A stretch of 7,486 nt of DNA from Naegleria gruberi (lineage: Eukaryota): assembly GCA_000004985.1 (NCBI GenBank), contig GG739136.1; one strand, written 5' to 3'. Positions 1-7,486 of the stretch are shown piece after piece (the first letter of the stretch is position 1; the number at the start of each line of letters is the position of its first letter). A model generated the notes under the pieces. The model searched no databases. It worked only from the letters and a program-made list of their open reading frames with translations, and was not told the origin of the DNA. Both the position numbers and the translations under genes were made by a program.

Positions 1-330
1 GAAATTAATTGCACAGAGCTGACAGGTTAATAGCCCTTTCTTGATTGTGTGGTGGGTAGTGCATGGCCGTTTCCAGTTCGTGGAGTGATCTGTCTTGTTA
101 ATTCAGATAACGAACGAGACCTAAGCCTTTAACTAGCCGTAGGCCTTTTCCTTCGGGGAAGGGTTAGTTTGTCGGAACAGGTTTCGGCCTGTTCCAAAAC
201 CTACGAGACTTTTGTCAGCTTCTTAAAGGGACTTCATTCGTAAACTAGGATGAGGAAGATTTAGGCCATAACAGGTCTGTGATGCTCTTAGATGTCCTGG
301 GCTGCACGCGTACAACCAGCGAGCGCTATG
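1..330 (+). rRNA. Eukaryotic-type SSU (18S-like) rRNA fragment covering the 3' major domain, partial at the window edge. Degenerate similarity trails on to ~400. The conserved 3' minor domain is missing, so this is likely a truncated or pseudogenised rDNA-derived segment, not a complete functional gene.
   Basis: Read directly against conserved 18S blocks recalled from memory. 'gacaggttaatagccctttcttgattg..ggtgggtagtgcatggccgtt' corresponds to GACAGATTGATAGCTCTTTCTCGATTC..GGTGGTGGTGCATGGCCGTT. 'gtcttgttaattcagataacgaacgagacc' corresponds to GTCTGGTTAATTCCGATAACGAACGAGAC. 'cagcttcttaaagggac' corresponds to CTTCTTAGAGGGAC. 'ataacaggtctgtgatgctcttagatgtcctgggctgcacgcg' corresponds to AATAACAGGTCTGTGATGCCCTTAGATGTCCGGGGCTGCACGCG. 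This is the eukaryotic cytoplasmic signature, not the bacterial/organellar one. Variable-region hairpins are intact (150-162 ccttc/ggg/gaagg; 174-195 ggaacagg/tttcgg/cctgttcc). Several universally conserved positions are substituted. No GTACACACCGCCCGTC or GTAACAAGG/GATCATTA 3' motifs occur anywhere downstream. Confidence 0.7.
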
Positions 331-526
331 GTTTTATAACCCCTTATCCTAATAGGATTGGGAAAACTTTTCAAACAGTAATCATGCCAAGTTTGGCCAA
401 TGGATAACATGGAAAGATTTAAAGCTTAAAACTAGTCATTGTGAGGAGGAGATTTTACTTGTTGATTATTTTGCAAATAATTTAACATTACCAACTGCTG
501 TTGTGGATAGTAATGTAACAGAGATC

Positions 527-1061
527 ATGGTTCAACACTTGAAGGAGTTGGATGGTGCAGTTCTTGTTTGTGAATTTAGCGTTGAGAAGACTGATGCAGA
601 GTTTGATGTATGCTTGTCATTCTTTCAAGTAGATGCCACAATATTGAAACGTATCAGCTCTTCATTCCAAATAGTTCAAGATCTGTTCAAATATGAAGAG
701 TACGGTAGATGTGGACTTATTTTTGAGCTATTGGATGAGTATTTTGTAGATGTACTTTTTTCTATTGATGGAATTGAGTGGAATATCATTAACAGAGGAA
801 GTGACTGGAAATTAATTCAAAAAGATCCAAGCCAATACATTTTTGTGACTCCAAAGTTAGAAAGTGAAAGGGAGTACTTTTTCAAACTTGTGGTCATTTC
901 AAAGAGAAATACGTGGATATATCATGACTTGGGTCAATTATATCCAGAATCAGTACTTTCTTCAGGTCTGTTGCCCTCATTGGTCAATGAAAATGTAAAA
1001 CATATTGTTGATGGTTGTGTCCTTGCTTCAACTCATCCAAACATGTTCCACCTTAAATTTG
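527..1061 (+). CDS. Partial CDS for a hypothetical protein with no recognisable domain. The 5' end is at the first in-frame ATG and the 3' end is truncated by the N-run.
   Basis: The frame is open for 186 codons from 503 to the last real base 1061, long for AT-rich DNA. An in-frame TAG lies upstream at 434-436. The track start at 503 is GTG. The first ATG is at 527 with A at -3 and G at +4. Codon usage is A/T-ending with AGA/AGG arginine, matching the minus-strand gene on the other flank. No motif was recognised in MVQHLKELDGAVLVCEFSVEKTDAEFDVC...HIVDGCVLASTHPNMFHLKF. An upstream exon or a different true start cannot be excluded. Confidence 0.5.
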
Positions 1062-4000
1062 NNNNNNNNNNNNNNNNNNNNNNNNNNNNNNNNNNNNNNN
1101 NNNNNNNNNNNNNNNNNNNNNNNNNNNNNNNNNNNNNNNNNNNNNNNNNNNNNNNNNNNNNNNNNNNNNNNNNNNNNNNNNNNNNNNNNNNNNNNNNNNN
1201 NNNNNNNNNNNNNNNNNNNNNNNNNNNNNNNNNNNNNNNNNNNNNNNNNNNNNNNNNNNNNNNNNNNNNNNNNNNNNNNNNNNNNNNNNNNNNNNNNNNN
1301 NNNNNNNNNNNNNNNNNNNNNNNNNNNNNNNNNNNNNNNNNNNNNNNNNNNNNNNNNNNNNNNNNNNNNNNNNNNNNNNNNNNNNNNNNNNNNNNNNNNN
1401 NNNNNNNNNNNNNNNNNNNNNNNNNNNNNNNNNNNNNNNNNNNNNNNNNNNNNNNNNNNNNNNNNNNNNNNNNNNNNNNNNNNNNNNNNNNNNNNNNNNN
1501 NNNNNNNNNNNNNNNNNNNNNNNNNNNNNNNNNNNNNNNNNNNNNNNNNNNNNNNNNNNNNNNNNNNNNNNNNNNNNNNNNNNNNNNNNNNNNNNNNNNN
1601 NNNNNNNNNNNNNNNNNNNNNNNNNNNNNNNNNNNNNNNNNNNNNNNNNNNNNNNNNNNNNNNNNNNNNNNNNNNNNNNNNNNNNNNNNNNNNNNNNNNN
1701 NNNNNNNNNNNNNNNNNNNNNNNNNNNNNNNNNNNNNNNNNNNNNNNNNNNNNNNNNNNNNNNNNNNNNNNNNNNNNNNNNNNNNNNNNNNNNNNNNNNN
1801 NNNNNNNNNNNNNNNNNNNNNNNNNNNNNNNNNNNNNNNNNNNNNNNNNNNNNNNNNNNNNNNNNNNNNNNNNNNNNNNNNNNNNNNNNNNNNNNNNNNN
1901 NNNNNNNNNNNNNNNNNNNNNNNNNNNNNNNNNNNNNNNNNNNNNNNNNNNNNNNNNNNNNNNNNNNNNNNNNNNNNNNNNNNNNNNNNNNNNNNNNNNN
2001 NNNNNNNNNNNNNNNNNNNNNNNNNNNNNNNNNNNNNNNNNNNNNNNNNNNNNNNNNNNNNNNNNNNNNNNNNNNNNNNNNNNNNNNNNNNNNNNNNNNN
2101 NNNNNNNNNNNNNNNNNNNNNNNNNNNNNNNNNNNNNNNNNNNNNNNNNNNNNNNNNNNNNNNNNNNNNNNNNNNNNNNNNNNNNNNNNNNNNNNNNNNN
2201 NNNNNNNNNNNNNNNNNNNNNNNNNNNNNNNNNNNNNNNNNNNNNNNNNNNNNNNNNNNNNNNNNNNNNNNNNNNNNNNNNNNNNNNNNNNNNNNNNNNN
2301 NNNNNNNNNNNNNNNNNNNNNNNNNNNNNNNNNNNNNNNNNNNNNNNNNNNNNNNNNNNNNNNNNNNNNNNNNNNNNNNNNNNNNNNNNNNNNNNNNNNN
2401 NNNNNNNNNNNNNNNNNNNNNNNNNNNNNNNNNNNNNNNNNNNNNNNNNNNNNNNNNNNNNNNNNNNNNNNNNNNNNNNNNNNNNNNNNNNNNNNNNNNN
2501 NNNNNNNNNNNNNNNNNNNNNNNNNNNNNNNNNNNNNNNNNNNNNNNNNNNNNNNNNNNNNNNNNNNNNNNNNNNNNNNNNNNNNNNNNNNNNNNNNNNN
2601 NNNNNNNNNNNNNNNNNNNNNNNNNNNNNNNNNNNNNNNNNNNNNNNNNNNNNNNNNNNNNNNNNNNNNNNNNNNNNNNNNNNNNNNNNNNNNNNNNNNN
2701 NNNNNNNNNNNNNNNNNNNNNNNNNNNNNNNNNNNNNNNNNNNNNNNNNNNNNNNNNNNNNNNNNNNNNNNNNNNNNNNNNNNNNNNNNNNNNNNNNNNN
2801 NNNNNNNNNNNNNNNNNNNNNNNNNNNNNNNNNNNNNNNNNNNNNNNNNNNNNNNNNNNNNNNNNNNNNNNNNNNNNNNNNNNNNNNNNNNNNNNNNNNN
2901 NNNNNNNNNNNNNNNNNNNNNNNNNNNNNNNNNNNNNNNNNNNNNNNNNNNNNNNNNNNNNNNNNNNNNNNNNNNNNNNNNNNNNNNNNNNNNNNNNNNN
3001 NNNNNNNNNNNNNNNNNNNNNNNNNNNNNNNNNNNNNNNNNNNNNNNNNNNNNNNNNNNNNNNNNNNNNNNNNNNNNNNNNNNNNNNNNNNNNNNNNNNN
3101 NNNNNNNNNNNNNNNNNNNNNNNNNNNNNNNNNNNNNNNNNNNNNNNNNNNNNNNNNNNNNNNNNNNNNNNNNNNNNNNNNNNNNNNNNNNNNNNNNNNN
3201 NNNNNNNNNNNNNNNNNNNNNNNNNNNNNNNNNNNNNNNNNNNNNNNNNNNNNNNNNNNNNNNNNNNNNNNNNNNNNNNNNNNNNNNNNNNNNNNNNNNN
3301 NNNNNNNNNNNNNNNNNNNNNNNNNNNNNNNNNNNNNNNNNNNNNNNNNNNNNNNNNNNNNNNNNNNNNNNNNNNNNNNNNNNNNNNNNNNNNNNNNNNN
3401 NNNNNNNNNNNNNNNNNNNNNNNNNNNNNNNNNNNNNNNNNNNNNNNNNNNNNNNNNNNNNNNNNNNNNNNNNNNNNNNNNNNNNNNNNNNNNNNNNNNN
3501 NNNNNNNNNNNNNNNNNNNNNNNNNNNNNNNNNNNNNNNNNNNNNNNNNNNNNNNNNNNNNNNNNNNNNNNNNNNNNNNNNNNNNNNNNNNNNNNNNNNN
3601 NNNNNNNNNNNNNNNNNNNNNNNNNNNNNNNNNNNNNNNNNNNNNNNNNNNNNNNNNNNNNNNNNNNNNNNNNNNNNNNNNNNNNNNNNNNNNNNNNNNN
3701 NNNNNNNNNNNNNNNNNNNNNNNNNNNNNNNNNNNNNNNNNNNNNNNNNNNNNNNNNNNNNNNNNNNNNNNNNNNNNNNNNNNNNNNNNNNNNNNNNNNN
3801 NNNNNNNNNNNNNNNNNNNNNNNNNNNNNNNNNNNNNNNNNNNNNNNNNNNNNNNNNNNNNNNNNNNNNNNNNNNNNNNNNNNNNNNNNNNNNNNNNNNN
3901 NNNNNNNNNNNNNNNNNNNNNNNNNNNNNNNNNNNNNNNNNNNNNNNNNNNNNNNNNNNNNNNNNNNNNNNNNNNNNNNNNNNNNNNNNNNNNNNNNNNN

Positions 4001-6181
4001 NNNNNNNNNNNNNNNNNNNNNNNNNNNNNNNNNNNNNNNNNNNNNNNNNNNNNNNNNNNNNNNNNNNNNNNNNNNNNNNNNNNNNNNNNNNNNNNNNNNN
4101 NNNNNNNNNNNNNNNNNNNNNNNNNNNNNNNNNNNNNNNNNNNNNNNNNNNNNNNNNNNNNNNNNNNNNNNNNNNNNNNNNNNNNNNNNNNNNNNNNNNN
4201 NNNNNNNNNNNNNNNNNNNNNNNNNNNNNNNNNNNNNNNNNNNNNNNNNNNNNNNNNNNNNNNNNNNNNNNNNNNNNNNNNNNNNNNNNNNNNNNNNNNN
4301 NNNNNNNNNNNNNNNNNNNNNNNNNNNNNNNNNNNNNNNNNNNNNNNNNNNNNNNNNNNNNNNNNNNNNNNNNNNNNNNNNNNNNNNNNNNNNNNNNNNN
4401 NNNNNNNNNNNNNNNNNNNNNNNNNNNNNNNNNNNNNNNNNNNNNNNNNNNNNNNNNNNNNNNNNNNNNNNNNNNNNNNNNNNNNNNNNNNNNNNNNNNN
4501 NNNNNNNNNNNNNNNNNNNNNNNNNNNNNNNNNNNNNNNNNNNNNNNNNNNNNNNNNNNNNNNNNNNNNNNNNNNNNNNNNNNNNNNNNNNNNNNNNNNN
4601 NNNNNNNNNNNNNNNNNNNNNNNNNNNNNNNNNNNNNNNNNNNNNNNNNNNNNNNNNNNNNNNNNNNNNNNNNNNNNNNNNNNNNNNNNNNNNNNNNNNN
4701 NNNNNNNNNNNNNNNNNNNNNNNNNNNNNNNNNNNNNNNNNNNNNNNNNNNNNNNNNNNNNNNNNNNNNNNNNNNNNNNNNNNNNNNNNNNNNNNNNNNN
4801 NNNNNNNNNNNNNNNNNNNNNNNNNNNNNNNNNNNNNNNNNNNNNNNNNNNNNNNNNNNNNNNNNNNNNNNNNNNNNNNNNNNNNNNNNNNNNNNNNNNN
4901 NNNNNNNNNNNNNNNNNNNNNNNNNNNNNNNNNNNNNNNNNNNNNNNNNNNNNNNNNNNNNNNNNNNNNNNNNNNNNNNNNNNNNNNNNNNNNNNNNNNN
5001 NNNNNNNNNNNNNNNNNNNNNNNNNNNNNNNNNNNNNNNNNNNNNNNNNNNNNNNNNNNNNNNNNNNNNNNNNNNNNNNNNNNNNNNNNNNNNNNNNNNN
5101 NNNNNNNNNNNNNNNNNNNNNNNNNNNNNNNNNNNNNNNNNNNNNNNNNNNNNNNNNNNNNNNNNNNNNNNNNNNNNNNNNNNNNNNNNNNNNNNNNNNN
5201 NNNNNNNNNNNNNNNNNNNNNNNNNNNNNNNNNNNNNNNNNNNNNNNNNNNNNNNNNNNNNNNNNNNNNNNNNNNNNNNNNNNNNNNNNNNNNNNNNNNN
5301 NNNNNNNNNNNNNNNNNNNNNNNNNNNNNNNNNNNNNNNNNNNNNNNNNNNNNNNNNNNNNNNNNNNNNNNNNNNNNNNNNNNNNNNNNNNNNNNNNNNN
5401 NNNNNNNNNNNNNNNNNNNNNNNNNNNNNNNNNNNNNNNNNNNNNNNNNNNNNNNNNNNNNNNNNNNNNNNNNNNNNNNNNNNNNNNNNNNNNNNNNNNN
5501 NNNNNNNNNNNNNNNNNNNNNNNNNNNNNNNNNNNNNNNNNNNNNNNNNNNNNNNNNNNNNNNNNNNNNNNNNNNNNNNNNNNNNNNNNNNNNNNNNNNN
5601 NNNNNNNNNNNNNNNNNNNNNNNNNNNNNNNNNNNNNNNNNNNNNNNNNNNNNNNNNNNNNNNNNNNNNNNNNNNNNNNNNNNNNNNNNNNNNNNNNNNN
5701 NNNNNNNNNNNNNNNNNNNNNNNNNNNNNNNNNNNNNNNNNNNNNNNNNNNNNNNNNNNNNNNNNNNNNNNNNNNNNNNNNNNNNNNNNNNNNNNNNNNN
5801 NNNNNNNNNNNNNNNNNNNNNNNNNNNNNNNNNNNNNNNNNNNNNNNNNNNNNNNNNNNNNNNNNNNNNNNNNNNNNNNNNNNNNNNNNNNNNNNNNNNN
5901 NNNNNNNNNNNNNNNNNNNNNNNNNNNNNNNNNNNNNNNNNNNNNNNNNNNNNNNNNNNNNNNNNNNNNNNNNNNNNNNNNNNNNNNNNNNNNNNNNNNN
6001 NNNNNNNNNNNNNNNNNNNNNNNNNNNNNNNNNNNNNNNNNNNNNNNNNNNNNNNNNNNNNNNNNNNNNNNNNNNNNNNNNNNNNNNNNNNNNNNNNNNN
6101 NNNNNNNNNNNNNNNNNNNNNNNNNNNNNNNNNNNNNNNNNNNNNNNNNNNNNNNNNNNNNNNNNNNNNNNNNNNNNNNNN
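1062..6181. other. A run of 5,120 consecutive N, either an assembly gap or a deliberately masked region. It carries no sequence information.
   Basis: N begins immediately after g1061 and ends before t6182, and 6181-1062+1 = 5120. All translated X in the ORF track derive from it. Confidence 0.98.
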
Positions 6182-7486
6182 TCTTATAGCTGCTGGTAAA
6201 TTTGAGGTATGAAGAATGGATCTCAGAATACTGACATTTTGTTTCATAGGTTCCTGTAGTCTTGTTATAATTATAGCTATAAGTTTTGCTTTCTTCCAAA
6301 TATAAATTAAGCCTTTGATAGTAATAATCCTTCCAGTATTGATCTTCTGAGGTGAGCTTGCAAATTCTCAATTTCTTAGAGACCAACTCTAATTTACACA
6401 AATCTGTGATTGTCATGAATGAGAGAACCAATCTGAAAATGTCATCATTCATTACATTATCAAATACTTCAATATTAAATGTTGGCTCATTAACTTGCTT
6501 CTTTTTTTCAACCTCAATCTTGTGATAGGTACCACCAAATACAAAGTAATTCATAGCAATACTATCATCTTCATTGGTCGCTTGGAATGGAACAGTTGTA
6601 TGAAAGACGGGTCCAACATCTTGGCTTGTAAAAGTTTGAGAAAGTGAGTGAGTGTGGGTTACATCCCAACCATTCTTGATATTAATTAAATCAATATAGA
6701 TACAATCCAAACGGTCAATTCTATCATTACAACCTCCAATGGAGTAAAGTCTTTTACCATTTTCTGATTTTTCCAACACCAATGAATGACCAAATCTTGG
6801 AGCAAAGCCATCAAGTTCAGAAATTAATACCTCCGATTGACAAGTACCCTCTTTCACATCCAGAGTAGACAATTTAATCTTTACAAAATCTTTAACAAGA
6901 CCAGTAGCCGATTTACCACCCAAAATATACCAATCGCCAGTTTCCTCATCCAAAACACTAGCATGATAATATCTTCCCTTAAGTTCAACGCTCAATTCCA
7001 TCAATTTCCATTCTCTACTCTTCAAATTGAAAATAAACAATTCATTCGATGGGAAACTGTTGTTATCATCATACCCACCAAACACAACCAAATAATCACC
7101 ATAAATAGTTGCTGATTGACCATAACGTGGAGTGATAATCTCATCACCACTAGGCTCCAGTAATCCCCACTCAAAAGTATCAAATCGATACGACCAAACA
7201 TCATTATGAAAACCATTTGATTTCCCGCCAAAAATTACCATCTCATCACTACAATCATTCGATTTTCTTTTCACTAGACACGAGGAGTGGAAGTTACGAG
7301 CACTTGGTCCCCTATTATGTATTGTCTTGTTTTCCCACTTTTGTGAGGAAACATCCACTTGAATGAGATCGTTTACAAGTAGTTCGGAATTGACAAAGCC
7401 TCCGAAAAGATAAACTTTATCGTTATGAAAGATACCACTGTGACCAACACGAGAGGTTAATTGACCGAGGGGCAACGAAGATGTTA
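6182..7486 (-). CDS. Partial CDS for a Kelch-repeat beta-propeller protein with a C-terminal F-box-like motif. The N-terminus lies beyond the window end and the C-terminal part runs into the N gap.
   Basis: The minus-strand frame is open from the window edge at 7486 down to 6183 (431 aa) and continues into N. The track's TTG 'start' at 7473-7475 is only the first bacterial-type start; codons upstream of it remain open. Six Kelch blades are recognisable from the spaced GG doublet, the aromatic/W and the R/Y/F-G-H motifs: GHSGIFHNDKVYLFGG..W; RNFHSSCLV..MVIFGG..W..W; PRYGQSATIYGDYLVVFGG..W; GRYYHASVL..WYILGG; PRFGHSLVL..LYSIGG..W; FHTTVPF..YFVFGG. These span roughly nt 6456-7454. Then DDIFRLVLSFMTITDLCKLELVSKKLRICKLTSEDQYWKDYY (about nt 6321-6446) fits the F-box consensus (hydrophobic-I/L-x-x-I/L..L..L..L..VSKxW). 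A Y/S/T/N-rich tail follows (YSYNYNKTTGTYETKCQYSEIHSSYLKFTSSYK). Confidence 0.85.

What the first reader, a model, noticed from the sequence alone, without database searches (positions are those of the whole stretch)
1..400. 18S-like rRNA segment that is structurally intact but mutated at universally conserved sites and lacks the whole 3' minor domain
The fragment aligns block by block with the eukaryotic SSU 3' major domain. It carries substitutions at positions that are near-invariant across eukaryotes: GCCCTTAGATG became gcTcttagatg, CTTCTTAGAGGGAC became cttcttaAagggac, TTAATTCCGATAACGA became ttaattcAgataacga, and GTTCTTAGTTGGTGG became gtttccagttcgtgg. About 8-10 nt are deleted around CTACACTGA. 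Similarity fades after ~330, and the decoding-centre helix (GTACACACCGCCCGTCGC) and the 3' end are absent. Even so, variable-region hairpins remain perfectly complementary (150-162, 174-195), which argues for recent origin from a functional rRNA. Candidate explanations are an orphon/rDNA pseudogene fragment outside the array, a truncated rDNA unit at an array edge, a chimeric scaffold join, or captured host rRNA sequence in a large DNA virus.
Basis: partly seen in the sequence, partly recalled or inferred. Interest (0 to 1): 0.5.

Follow-up and report, generated by a model that had tools for sequence, protein, structure and literature searches.

The report
rDNA-plasmid fragment inserted in Naegleria gene
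A 358-base piece of normal Naegleria 18S rRNA sequence, from an organism that keeps its rRNA genes on a free plasmid, sits inside one copy of a nuclear protein-coding gene with the junction marks of DNA-break repair; it is not a decaying rRNA gene, but it rests on one tiny leftover scaffold.

Summary
The window is an entire 7,486-bp Naegleria gruberi mini-scaffold: two contigs (1-1061 and 6182-7486) joined by 5,120 N. Only window 20-377 is rDNA. It matches complete Naegleria-type 18S genes from metagenomes at 357 of 358 bases. All four "mutated universal sites" occur in every canonical contig, so they are lineage-specific, not decay. The real anomalies are an 11-nt net deletion at 313/314 and two sharp junctions. 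Both flanks belong to one nuclear gene, NAEGRDRAFT_63106. An intact copy from an independent assembly (L019) is 100% identical to window 1-22 and 376-1061 and has 19 nt where the window has rDNA. The junctions carry 3-nt (TGA) and 2-nt (CA) microhomologies. There is no target-site duplication and no poly(A). The insertion stops the reading frame after three codons. Best reading: an rDNA fragment was captured or copied during end-joining repair of a chromosomal break, much as mitochondrial DNA inserts into nuclear genomes (NUMTs). This is notable because Naegleria is reported to have no chromosomal rDNA. The caveat is that support is probably a single Sanger read, so a rare somatic event or an artefact is not excluded. 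Modest interest.

The parts
1..22 (+). Left flank: coding sequence of a copy of N. gruberi gene NAEGRDRAFT_63106 (codons E-I-N-C-T-E-L). It is also the start of the scaffold.
   Evidence: 100% identical to L019 188-209. P0024 reads ...HPEINCTELNK....
20..22 (+). 5' junction microhomology TGA, shared by the native gene (GAGCTGA|ATAAG) and by 18S (GAT|TGACAGG).
   Evidence: Base-by-base extension of both matches.
20..377 (+). 18S rDNA-derived fragment, 358 nt (353 nt, 23-375, are unambiguously rDNA). It is part of the SSU 3' major domain, about Rfam RF01960 positions 1241-1561 of 1831, in the sense orientation relative to the host gene.
   Evidence: 357/358 identity to L012, plus one gap. Alignment. 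Rfam alignment.
313..316 (+). Internal lesion of the fragment. The canonical 13 nt TACAATAACGGTA are replaced by AA (window 314-315), a net loss of 11 nt. Equivalently, an 11-nt deletion plus one T>A change. It removes the conserved CUACAAUG motif.
   Evidence: All 17 Naegleria-type contigs carry the full sequence; only the window lacks it.
28..33 (+). Premature stop codons TAA TAG in the host gene's frame, three codons into the insertion. The net length change is +334 nt, which also shifts the frame.
   Evidence: Translation EINCTELTG**.
376..377 (+). 3' junction microhomology CA, shared by 18S (CAAACA|CCG) and by the native gene (TTTGG|CAGTAAT).
376..1061 (+). Right flank: continuation of the same gene (codons SNHAKFGQW...HLKF, P0024 residues 61-288). 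It runs into the gap.
   Evidence: 686/686 identical to L019 229-914. 100% identical to P0024 residues 76-288.
1062..6181 (.). Scaffold gap of 5,120 N.
6182..7486 (-). Kelch-repeat/F-box gene fragment (P0031 = EFC35580.1). It is a 98%-identical second copy or allele of NAEGRDRAFT_63109, a near neighbour of 63106 on the 850-kb scaffold.
   Evidence: Pfam kelch and F-box. 416/416 to P0031, which is on a 7,486-bp contig. 327/335 to P0001.

Best explanation
In a Naegleria gruberi nucleus, one copy of gene NAEGRDRAFT_63106 suffered a double-strand break. The ends lost 19 nt. Repair by end joining then filled the break with a ~355-nt piece of 18S sequence from the cell's most abundant nuclear DNA, the ~4,000-copy extrachromosomal rDNA circle (CERE). 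The piece was either physically captured or copied from microhomology-primed ends. Short microhomologies (TGA, CA) guided the two joins. The fragment has no rRNA function; its only effect is to knock out that gene copy through a stop after three codons and a frameshift. Because the read carrying it could not be merged with the intact allele in the 850-kb scaffold, the assembler left it and its mate as a separate 7.5-kb mini-scaffold. Shown: the identity of the fragment, the empty-site allele, the junctions, the 19-nt loss and the gene disruption. Inferred: that the event happened in vivo by end joining, that the donor was CERE DNA rather than rRNA-derived cDNA, and how common the allele is.
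For: (1) The fragment is normal Naegleria-type 18S: 357/358 identity to a complete rDNA unit. (2) An empty site exists: L019 is 100% identical to window 1-22 and 376-1061 and has 19 nt in place of the rDNA. The reference protein P0024 and the independent P0030 are both uninterrupted. (3) Both flanks come from one locus, in the same orientation and 19 nt apart. The mate-pair contig is the neighbouring kelch gene, as on the 850-kb scaffold. So the context is chromosomal and collinear. (4) Junction microhomologies of 3 nt and 2 nt have a joint chance expectation of about 1.5% under random blunt joins of these sequences. (5) There is no target-site duplication and no poly(A) (sequence). (6) Size and architecture match experimentally captured fragments at yeast breaks: 22-492 bp, microhomology, NHEJ-dependent, about 12% complex. 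In aged yeast, the inserts of genomic origin came mostly from rDNA (PMC11372161). (7) The donor is very abundant: 3,000-5,000 CERE copies per cell (PMC5805870). (8) N. gruberi is listed among species with a DNA-PKcs orthologue, which suggests NHEJ machinery is present (PMC8021618).
Against: The insertion is seen only in this mini-scaffold. Its left contig is 1,061 nt and starts 19 nt before the junction, which suggests a single Sanger read. If a haplotype carried the insertion at normal coverage, other reads should have extended the contig leftward. Two other assemblies of the gene are intact. I could not obtain strain NEG-M's own CERE sequence or any raw reads. The internal 11-nt lesion is not explained by simple capture.
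Confidence: 0.72

Rival explanations
1. Library or assembly artefact. The rDNA plasmid contributes a large share of shotgun clones, so a small rDNA fragment became joined to nuclear DNA during cloning, or the assembler mis-joined reads. On this reading no such allele ever existed in a cell.
For: It is a leftover mini-scaffold with a read-length contig that starts 19 nt from the junction. The donor is highly abundant. The intact allele is found twice elsewhere.
Against: A co-ligation chimera joins unrelated fragments. Here it would need three pieces, one only 19-22 nt long, with the two nuclear pieces coming from the same gene, in the same orientation, exactly 19 nt apart. Blunt ligation does not predict microhomology at both joins (p about 0.015). 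There is no vector-like sequence in the flanks. An assembler cannot join reads on 2-3 nt overlaps.
Confidence: 0.2
2. Same in vivo break-repair event, but the donor was cDNA reverse-transcribed from mature 18S rRNA, not CERE DNA. This is a variant of the best explanation and overlaps with it.
For: The fragment lies wholly within mature 18S, so an RNA origin cannot be excluded. A reverse-transcriptase jump could produce the internal 11-nt lesion. Ty cDNA is captured at yeast breaks.
Against: There is no poly(A), no target-site duplication and no adjacent retroelement. CERE DNA is already in the nucleus at thousands of copies. No reverse-transcriptase source was examined.
Confidence: 0.1
3. One reading: an old orphon or pseudogene, or a truncated unit at an rDNA array edge, that is accumulating mutations at conserved sites.
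For: The segment deviates from the pan-eukaryote consensus at conserved positions and lacks the 3' minor domain.
Against: Every listed deviation is the normal Naegleria sequence. There is 1 difference in 358 nt besides the deletion. An empty-site allele that is 100% identical in the flanks shows the event is very recent. Naegleria is reported to have no chromosomal array.
Confidence: 0.02

Closest known systems
NUMTs/NUPTs and other 'filler DNA' captured at double-strand breaks by NHEJ (yeast Break-Ins data, PMC11372161)
   Same: A short fragment (here ~355 nt; yeast 22-492 bp) from an abundant non-chromosomal DNA. Sharp junctions with 2-3 nt microhomology. A small deletion at the target. No target-site duplication and no poly(A). 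Near-identity to the donor. An internal complexity.
   Different: The donor is a nuclear (nucleolar) rDNA plasmid, not an organelle genome. Heritability was not demonstrated here.
rDNA-derived insertions at breaks in aged yeast cells (PMC11372161) and in dna2 yeast mutants (the latter from my own recollection of Yu et al. 2018, not read here)
   Same: rDNA sequence is used as filler in end-joining repair. The yeast cases are associated, from my own knowledge, with accumulation of extrachromosomal rDNA circles.
   Different: In yeast, extrachromosomal rDNA circles are a by-product of a chromosomal array. In Naegleria, the circle is reported to be the only rDNA.
rRNA retro-pseudogenes and LINE-mediated chimeric retrocopies (own knowledge)
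   Same: An rRNA fragment in sense orientation at an ectopic site.
   Different: No poly(A), no target-site duplication and no LINE partner. The target shows a deletion instead.
Functional eukaryotic SSU rRNA gene (Rfam RF01960)
   Same: The sequence of helices in the 3' major domain, including lineage-specific expansion hairpins, is intact.
   Different: It covers only about 320 of 1,831 model positions. It lacks the 5' and central domains, h44 and the 3' end, and the CUACAAUG motif. It is embedded in an ORF.

Membership tests
Functional SSU rRNA gene (RF01960) | Full-length coverage of the model, including the decoding-centre helix and the 3' end | tested here: not met
   True rDNA covers about model 1241-1561 only. 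The canonical contigs continue through GTACACACCGCCCGTCGC to the 3' end; the window does not.
Functional SSU rRNA gene (RF01960) | Lies in an rDNA unit with 5.8S and LSU | tested here: not met
   The only Rfam hit in the window is the fragment. The flanks are a protein-coding gene. L012 shows the normal unit.
Decaying rDNA pseudogene / orphon | Excess substitutions relative to the organism's functional rRNA, including at conserved sites | tested here: not met
   357/358 identical to canonical Naegleria-type 18S. The four 'mutated' sites are in all canonical contigs. NEG-M's own CERE sequence (AB298288) was not available.
End-joining capture of filler DNA at a DSB (NUMT-like) | An empty-site allele exists, and both flanks are contiguous in it | tested here: met
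   L019 is 100% identical to window 1-22 and 376-1061, with 19 nt between them. P0024 and P0030 are uninterrupted.
End-joining capture of filler DNA at a DSB (NUMT-like) | Junctions are blunt or have a few nt of microhomology, often with a small target deletion and no target-site duplication | tested here: met
   TGA (3 nt) and CA (2 nt). 19-nt loss. No duplication. Chance of such microhomology is about 0.015.
End-joining capture of filler DNA at a DSB (NUMT-like) | The donor is an abundant extrachromosomal or fragmented DNA, and the insert is tens to hundreds of bp | tested here: met
   The insert is 353-358 nt of 18S. The donor is the CERE at 3,000-5,000 copies per cell, according to the literature. 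The yeast size range is 22-492 bp.
End-joining capture of filler DNA at a DSB (NUMT-like) | Present in genomic DNA of the organism, supported by independent molecules | not testable with these tools
   No raw reads were available. Junction-spanning ORF look-ups found nothing.
LINE/TPRT-mediated rRNA retrocopy | 3' poly(A) and flanking target-site duplication | tested here: not met
   The fragment ends ...TTTTCAAACA and joins directly to the gene. The target shows a 19-nt deletion, not a duplication.
Co-ligation cloning chimera | The junction joins sequences from unrelated genomic places | tested here: not met
   Both flanks come from the same gene, in the same orientation, 19 nt apart.

The most novel reading that the evidence does not exclude
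The insertion is a heritable allele on one N. gruberi NEG-M haplotype. That would make it the first documented transfer of rDNA-plasmid sequence into a Naegleria chromosome. It would show that an organism described as having no chromosomal rDNA does carry plasmid-derived rDNA pieces, that such pieces can knock out genes, and that assembly pipelines which discard rDNA-mapping reads before assembly hide them.
Probability: 0.25. Interest if true: 0.45.

Novelty: new member of a known kind. Interest (0 to 1): 0.3.

Why it matters
Naegleria is a textbook case of a eukaryote whose rRNA genes are said to be only on an extrachromosomal circle. A chromosomal insertion of circle-derived 18S sequence would show that DNA flows from that circle into the chromosomes by the same break-repair route that makes NUMTs, and that it can inactivate genes. 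It also carries two practical warnings. First, deviations from a pan-eukaryote rRNA consensus must be judged against the lineage's own rRNA. Second, filtering rDNA-plasmid reads before assembly, as later Naegleria projects did (PMC6831594), would remove exactly the reads that reveal such events. A single event with probably single-read support is a curiosity, not a discovery.

Tried and rejected
(1) The word-indexed protein search with the ORF at 422-1060 found nothing. This was a false negative. The exhaustive HMMER search found P0024 at 100% identity. (2) Early on I misread 419-421 as a stop codon; it is TTA. The frame is open from the 3' junction onward. (3) I considered a template-switch chimera between rRNA and a retroelement ORF. 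I rejected it because the ORF is an ordinary Naegleria-specific gene, both flanks belong to it, and there is no poly(A) or target-site duplication. (4) I considered a group I intron or homing-endonuclease ORF interrupting the SSU. I rejected it because the canonical 18S runs straight through both junction positions, and the Naegleria-type intron marker GIR1 lies far upstream in L012. (5) Vector or bacterial plasmid origin of the flanks: no hits. The only PLSDB hits covered the 18S part. (6) Giant-virus origin of the ORF: no relative in viral contigs. (7) Exact-product look-ups for P0001, P0024 and two junction-spanning small ORFs returned no record. (8) The Fritz-Laylin 2010 and Clark & Cross 1987 papers are not held. 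PRJEB11402 is not mentioned in any held paper. (9) Pfam finds nothing in P0024, so the function of the interrupted gene is unknown.

Full report
WHAT THE WINDOW IS. Real sequence is only 1-1061 and 6182-7486; 1062-6181 is 5,120 N. The minus-strand ORF at 6182-7486 is a kelch-repeat/F-box protein. It is 416/416 identical to P0031 (EFC35580.1, 'predicted protein, partial [Naegleria gruberi]'), which is recorded on a contig of exactly 7,486 bp. So the window is a complete mini-scaffold of the N. gruberi draft assembly. The same gene exists at 98% identity (327/335, with scattered substitutions and a 2-residue indel) as NAEGRDRAFT_63109 on an 850,158-bp scaffold. The window is therefore a second, slightly different copy, either an unmerged allele or a leftover, of a region already present in the main assembly.

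CHECKING THE OBSERVATION. Rfam reports one hit: SSU_rRNA_eukarya, window 1-417, model positions 1222-1606 of 1831, 200 bits (203 bits with permissive filters). To judge the 'mutations' I needed Naegleria's own 18S. One of them, L012 (14,434 bp), carries SSU, 5.8S, a full LSU and a GIR1 branching ribozyme. GIR1 is, from my own knowledge, a hallmark of the Naegleria SSU twin-ribozyme intron. The contig size is that of a whole rDNA circle; 14,007 bp is reported for N. gruberi EGB (PMC5805870).

BLASTN and MAFFT show that only window 20-377 is homologous to these rDNAs. The best match, L012, covers 358 window bases with 1 mismatch and one 11-nt gap. They are the normal Naegleria sequence. The canonical genes continue through the decoding centre to the 3' end, and the window does not. 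The deletion is real. All 17 Naegleria-type contigs read GCGTAC TACAATAACGGTA CCAGCG, and the window reads GCGTAC AA CCAGCG. The similarity does not fade; it ends abruptly at 377.

WHAT FLANKS IT. The open frame downstream found no homologue in the word-indexed search. The exhaustive search found P0024, which is N. gruberi NAEGRDRAFT_63106 (724 aa, on the same 850-kb scaffold as the kelch gene), at 100% identity over residues 76-288. P0024 reads ...HPEINCTELNKILSFGSNHAKFGQW.... Window 1-18 encodes EINCTE, and window 377 onward encodes SNHAKFGQW. So both sides of the rDNA piece are one coding sequence.

A cluster mate, P0030, differs from P0024 at 1 of 724 residues. It gave access to DNA of an intact copy in an independent ENA assembly (L019). 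Window 1-22 equals L019 188-209, and window 376-1061 equals L019 229-914, both at 100%. The 19 nt at L019 210-228 (ATAAGATCTTATCCTTTGG) are absent from the window and are replaced by the rDNA. L019 alone gives no Rfam hit. This confirms that the ends of the window's Rfam hit (1-19 and 378-417) are over-extension into gene sequence.

ANATOMY OF THE EVENT.
- 5' junction: the native gene reads ...GAGCTGA|ATAAG and the 18S reads ...TTTGAT|TGACAGG. They share TGA at window 20-22.
- 3' junction: the 18S reads ...CAAACA|CCGTT and the native gene reads ...TTTGG|CAGTAAT. They share CA at window 376-377.
- The unambiguous rDNA is 23-375 (353 nt). The net change is +334 nt.
- The host frame reads EINCTELTG** and stops at 28-33.
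- There is no target-site duplication and no poly(A).
- In random joins of these same sequences, microhomology of at least 3 nt at one junction and at least 2 nt at the other occurs about 1.5% of the time.

HOW IT MOST LIKELY AROSE. The set of features is: an empty-site allele, a small target deletion, short microhomologies, a few-hundred-bp insert nearly identical to an abundant donor, and a small internal complexity. This is the known signature of fragment capture, or microhomology-primed copying, during end-joining repair of a double-strand break. In yeast, such inserts are 22-492 bp, NHEJ-dependent and show junction microhomology. About 12% are complex. In aged cells, the inserts of genomic origin came mostly from rDNA (PMC11372161).

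In Naegleria the rDNA is reported to be exclusively on 3,000-5,000 extrachromosomal circles, with 'no rRNA genes in the nuclear DNA' (PMC5805870; PMC10586121). That makes the circle the most abundant potential filler. N. gruberi is listed among species with DNA-PKcs (PMC8021618), which is consistent with NHEJ capacity.

Several points remain inferred. I cannot tell whether the donor was CERE DNA or 18S cDNA, because the fragment lies wholly within mature 18S. I cannot tell whether the 11-nt lesion pre-existed in a defective circle, arose by processing of a nicked fragment, or reflects a template jump.

ARTEFACT OR REAL? A co-ligation chimera is very unlikely. It would need three pieces, one only about 20 nt long, with the two nuclear pieces from the same gene, collinear and 19 nt apart. 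No vector-like sequence was found. The mate contig is the expected chromosomal neighbour.

However, the left contig is read-length (1,061 nt) and begins 19 nt before the junction. The intact gene is seen in two other assemblies. So the insertion is probably supported by a single clone. That fits a rare or subclonal in vivo event at least as well as a haplotype-fixed allele, and it leaves some room for an unrecognised artefact. My estimates are: an in vivo break-repair insertion about 0.7-0.75; an artefact about 0.2; heritable on a haplotype about 0.25.

COMPARISON WITH THE KNOWN, AND NOVELTY. Functionally this is a NUMT-like insertion whose donor is a nuclear rDNA plasmid. It is not a member of the functional SSU gene family, since it fails coverage, the 3' minor domain and unit context. 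It is not a decaying orphon, since it has no excess substitutions. It is not a LINE-mediated retrocopy, since it has no poly(A) and no target-site duplication. I found no report of CERE-derived sequence in Naegleria chromosomes in the searchable literature. Later assemblies remove rDNA-plasmid reads before assembly (PMC6831594), which would hide such events. I class it as a new member of a known kind, of modest interest.

Noticed in passing
L019 210-228 (the native site missing between window 22 and 376): The 19 nt lost at the insertion site begin with a perfect 12-nt palindrome, ATAAGATCTTAT. Such palindromes occur 3 times in L019's 3,433 nt, so roughly a 2-3% coincidence. It may be a hairpin-prone or fragile site that seeded the break.
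   Followed up: partly
window 6182-7486 versus window 1-22 and 376-1061: Divergence from the main-scaffold copy is very uneven within about 6 kb. The kelch gene differs at 6 residues plus a 2-residue indel in 335 aa, while the left contig is 708/708 nt identical to the intact copy in L019. This could be patchy heterozygosity or a paralogous duplicate.
   Followed up: no
PLSDB hits H1-H6 (e.g. NZ_CP117868.1, NZ_CP050525.1, NZ_CP087163.1): Several unannotated records deposited as bacterial plasmids match window 20-310 at 80-86%. They appear to contain eukaryotic 18S rDNA and are probably contaminants.
   Followed up: no
L012 14046-14242 (-), and L002/L012 as whole contigs: L012 carries a GIR1 branching ribozyme upstream of the reported SSU match, which points to a twin-ribozyme group I intron in the SSU. 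L002 (14,161 bp) and L012 (14,434 bp) are the size of complete Naegleria rDNA circles recovered from metagenomes.
   Followed up: partly
window 422-1060 / P0024: The interrupted gene belongs to a family with no Pfam domain. The exhaustive search gave only a few convincing full-length relatives, P0026 (822 aa) and P0027 (730 aa), whose source organisms were not checked. The word-indexed protein search missed the 100%-identical P0024 entirely.
   Followed up: partly
L019 (ENA ERZ929261 / ERR1078381, PRJEB11402): A contig labelled as metagenome is 100% identical to N. gruberi NEG-M sequence over 708 nt and encodes a protein 723/724 identical to the reference. So that sample evidently contains N. 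gruberi or a very close strain. No held paper mentions the project.
   Followed up: partly
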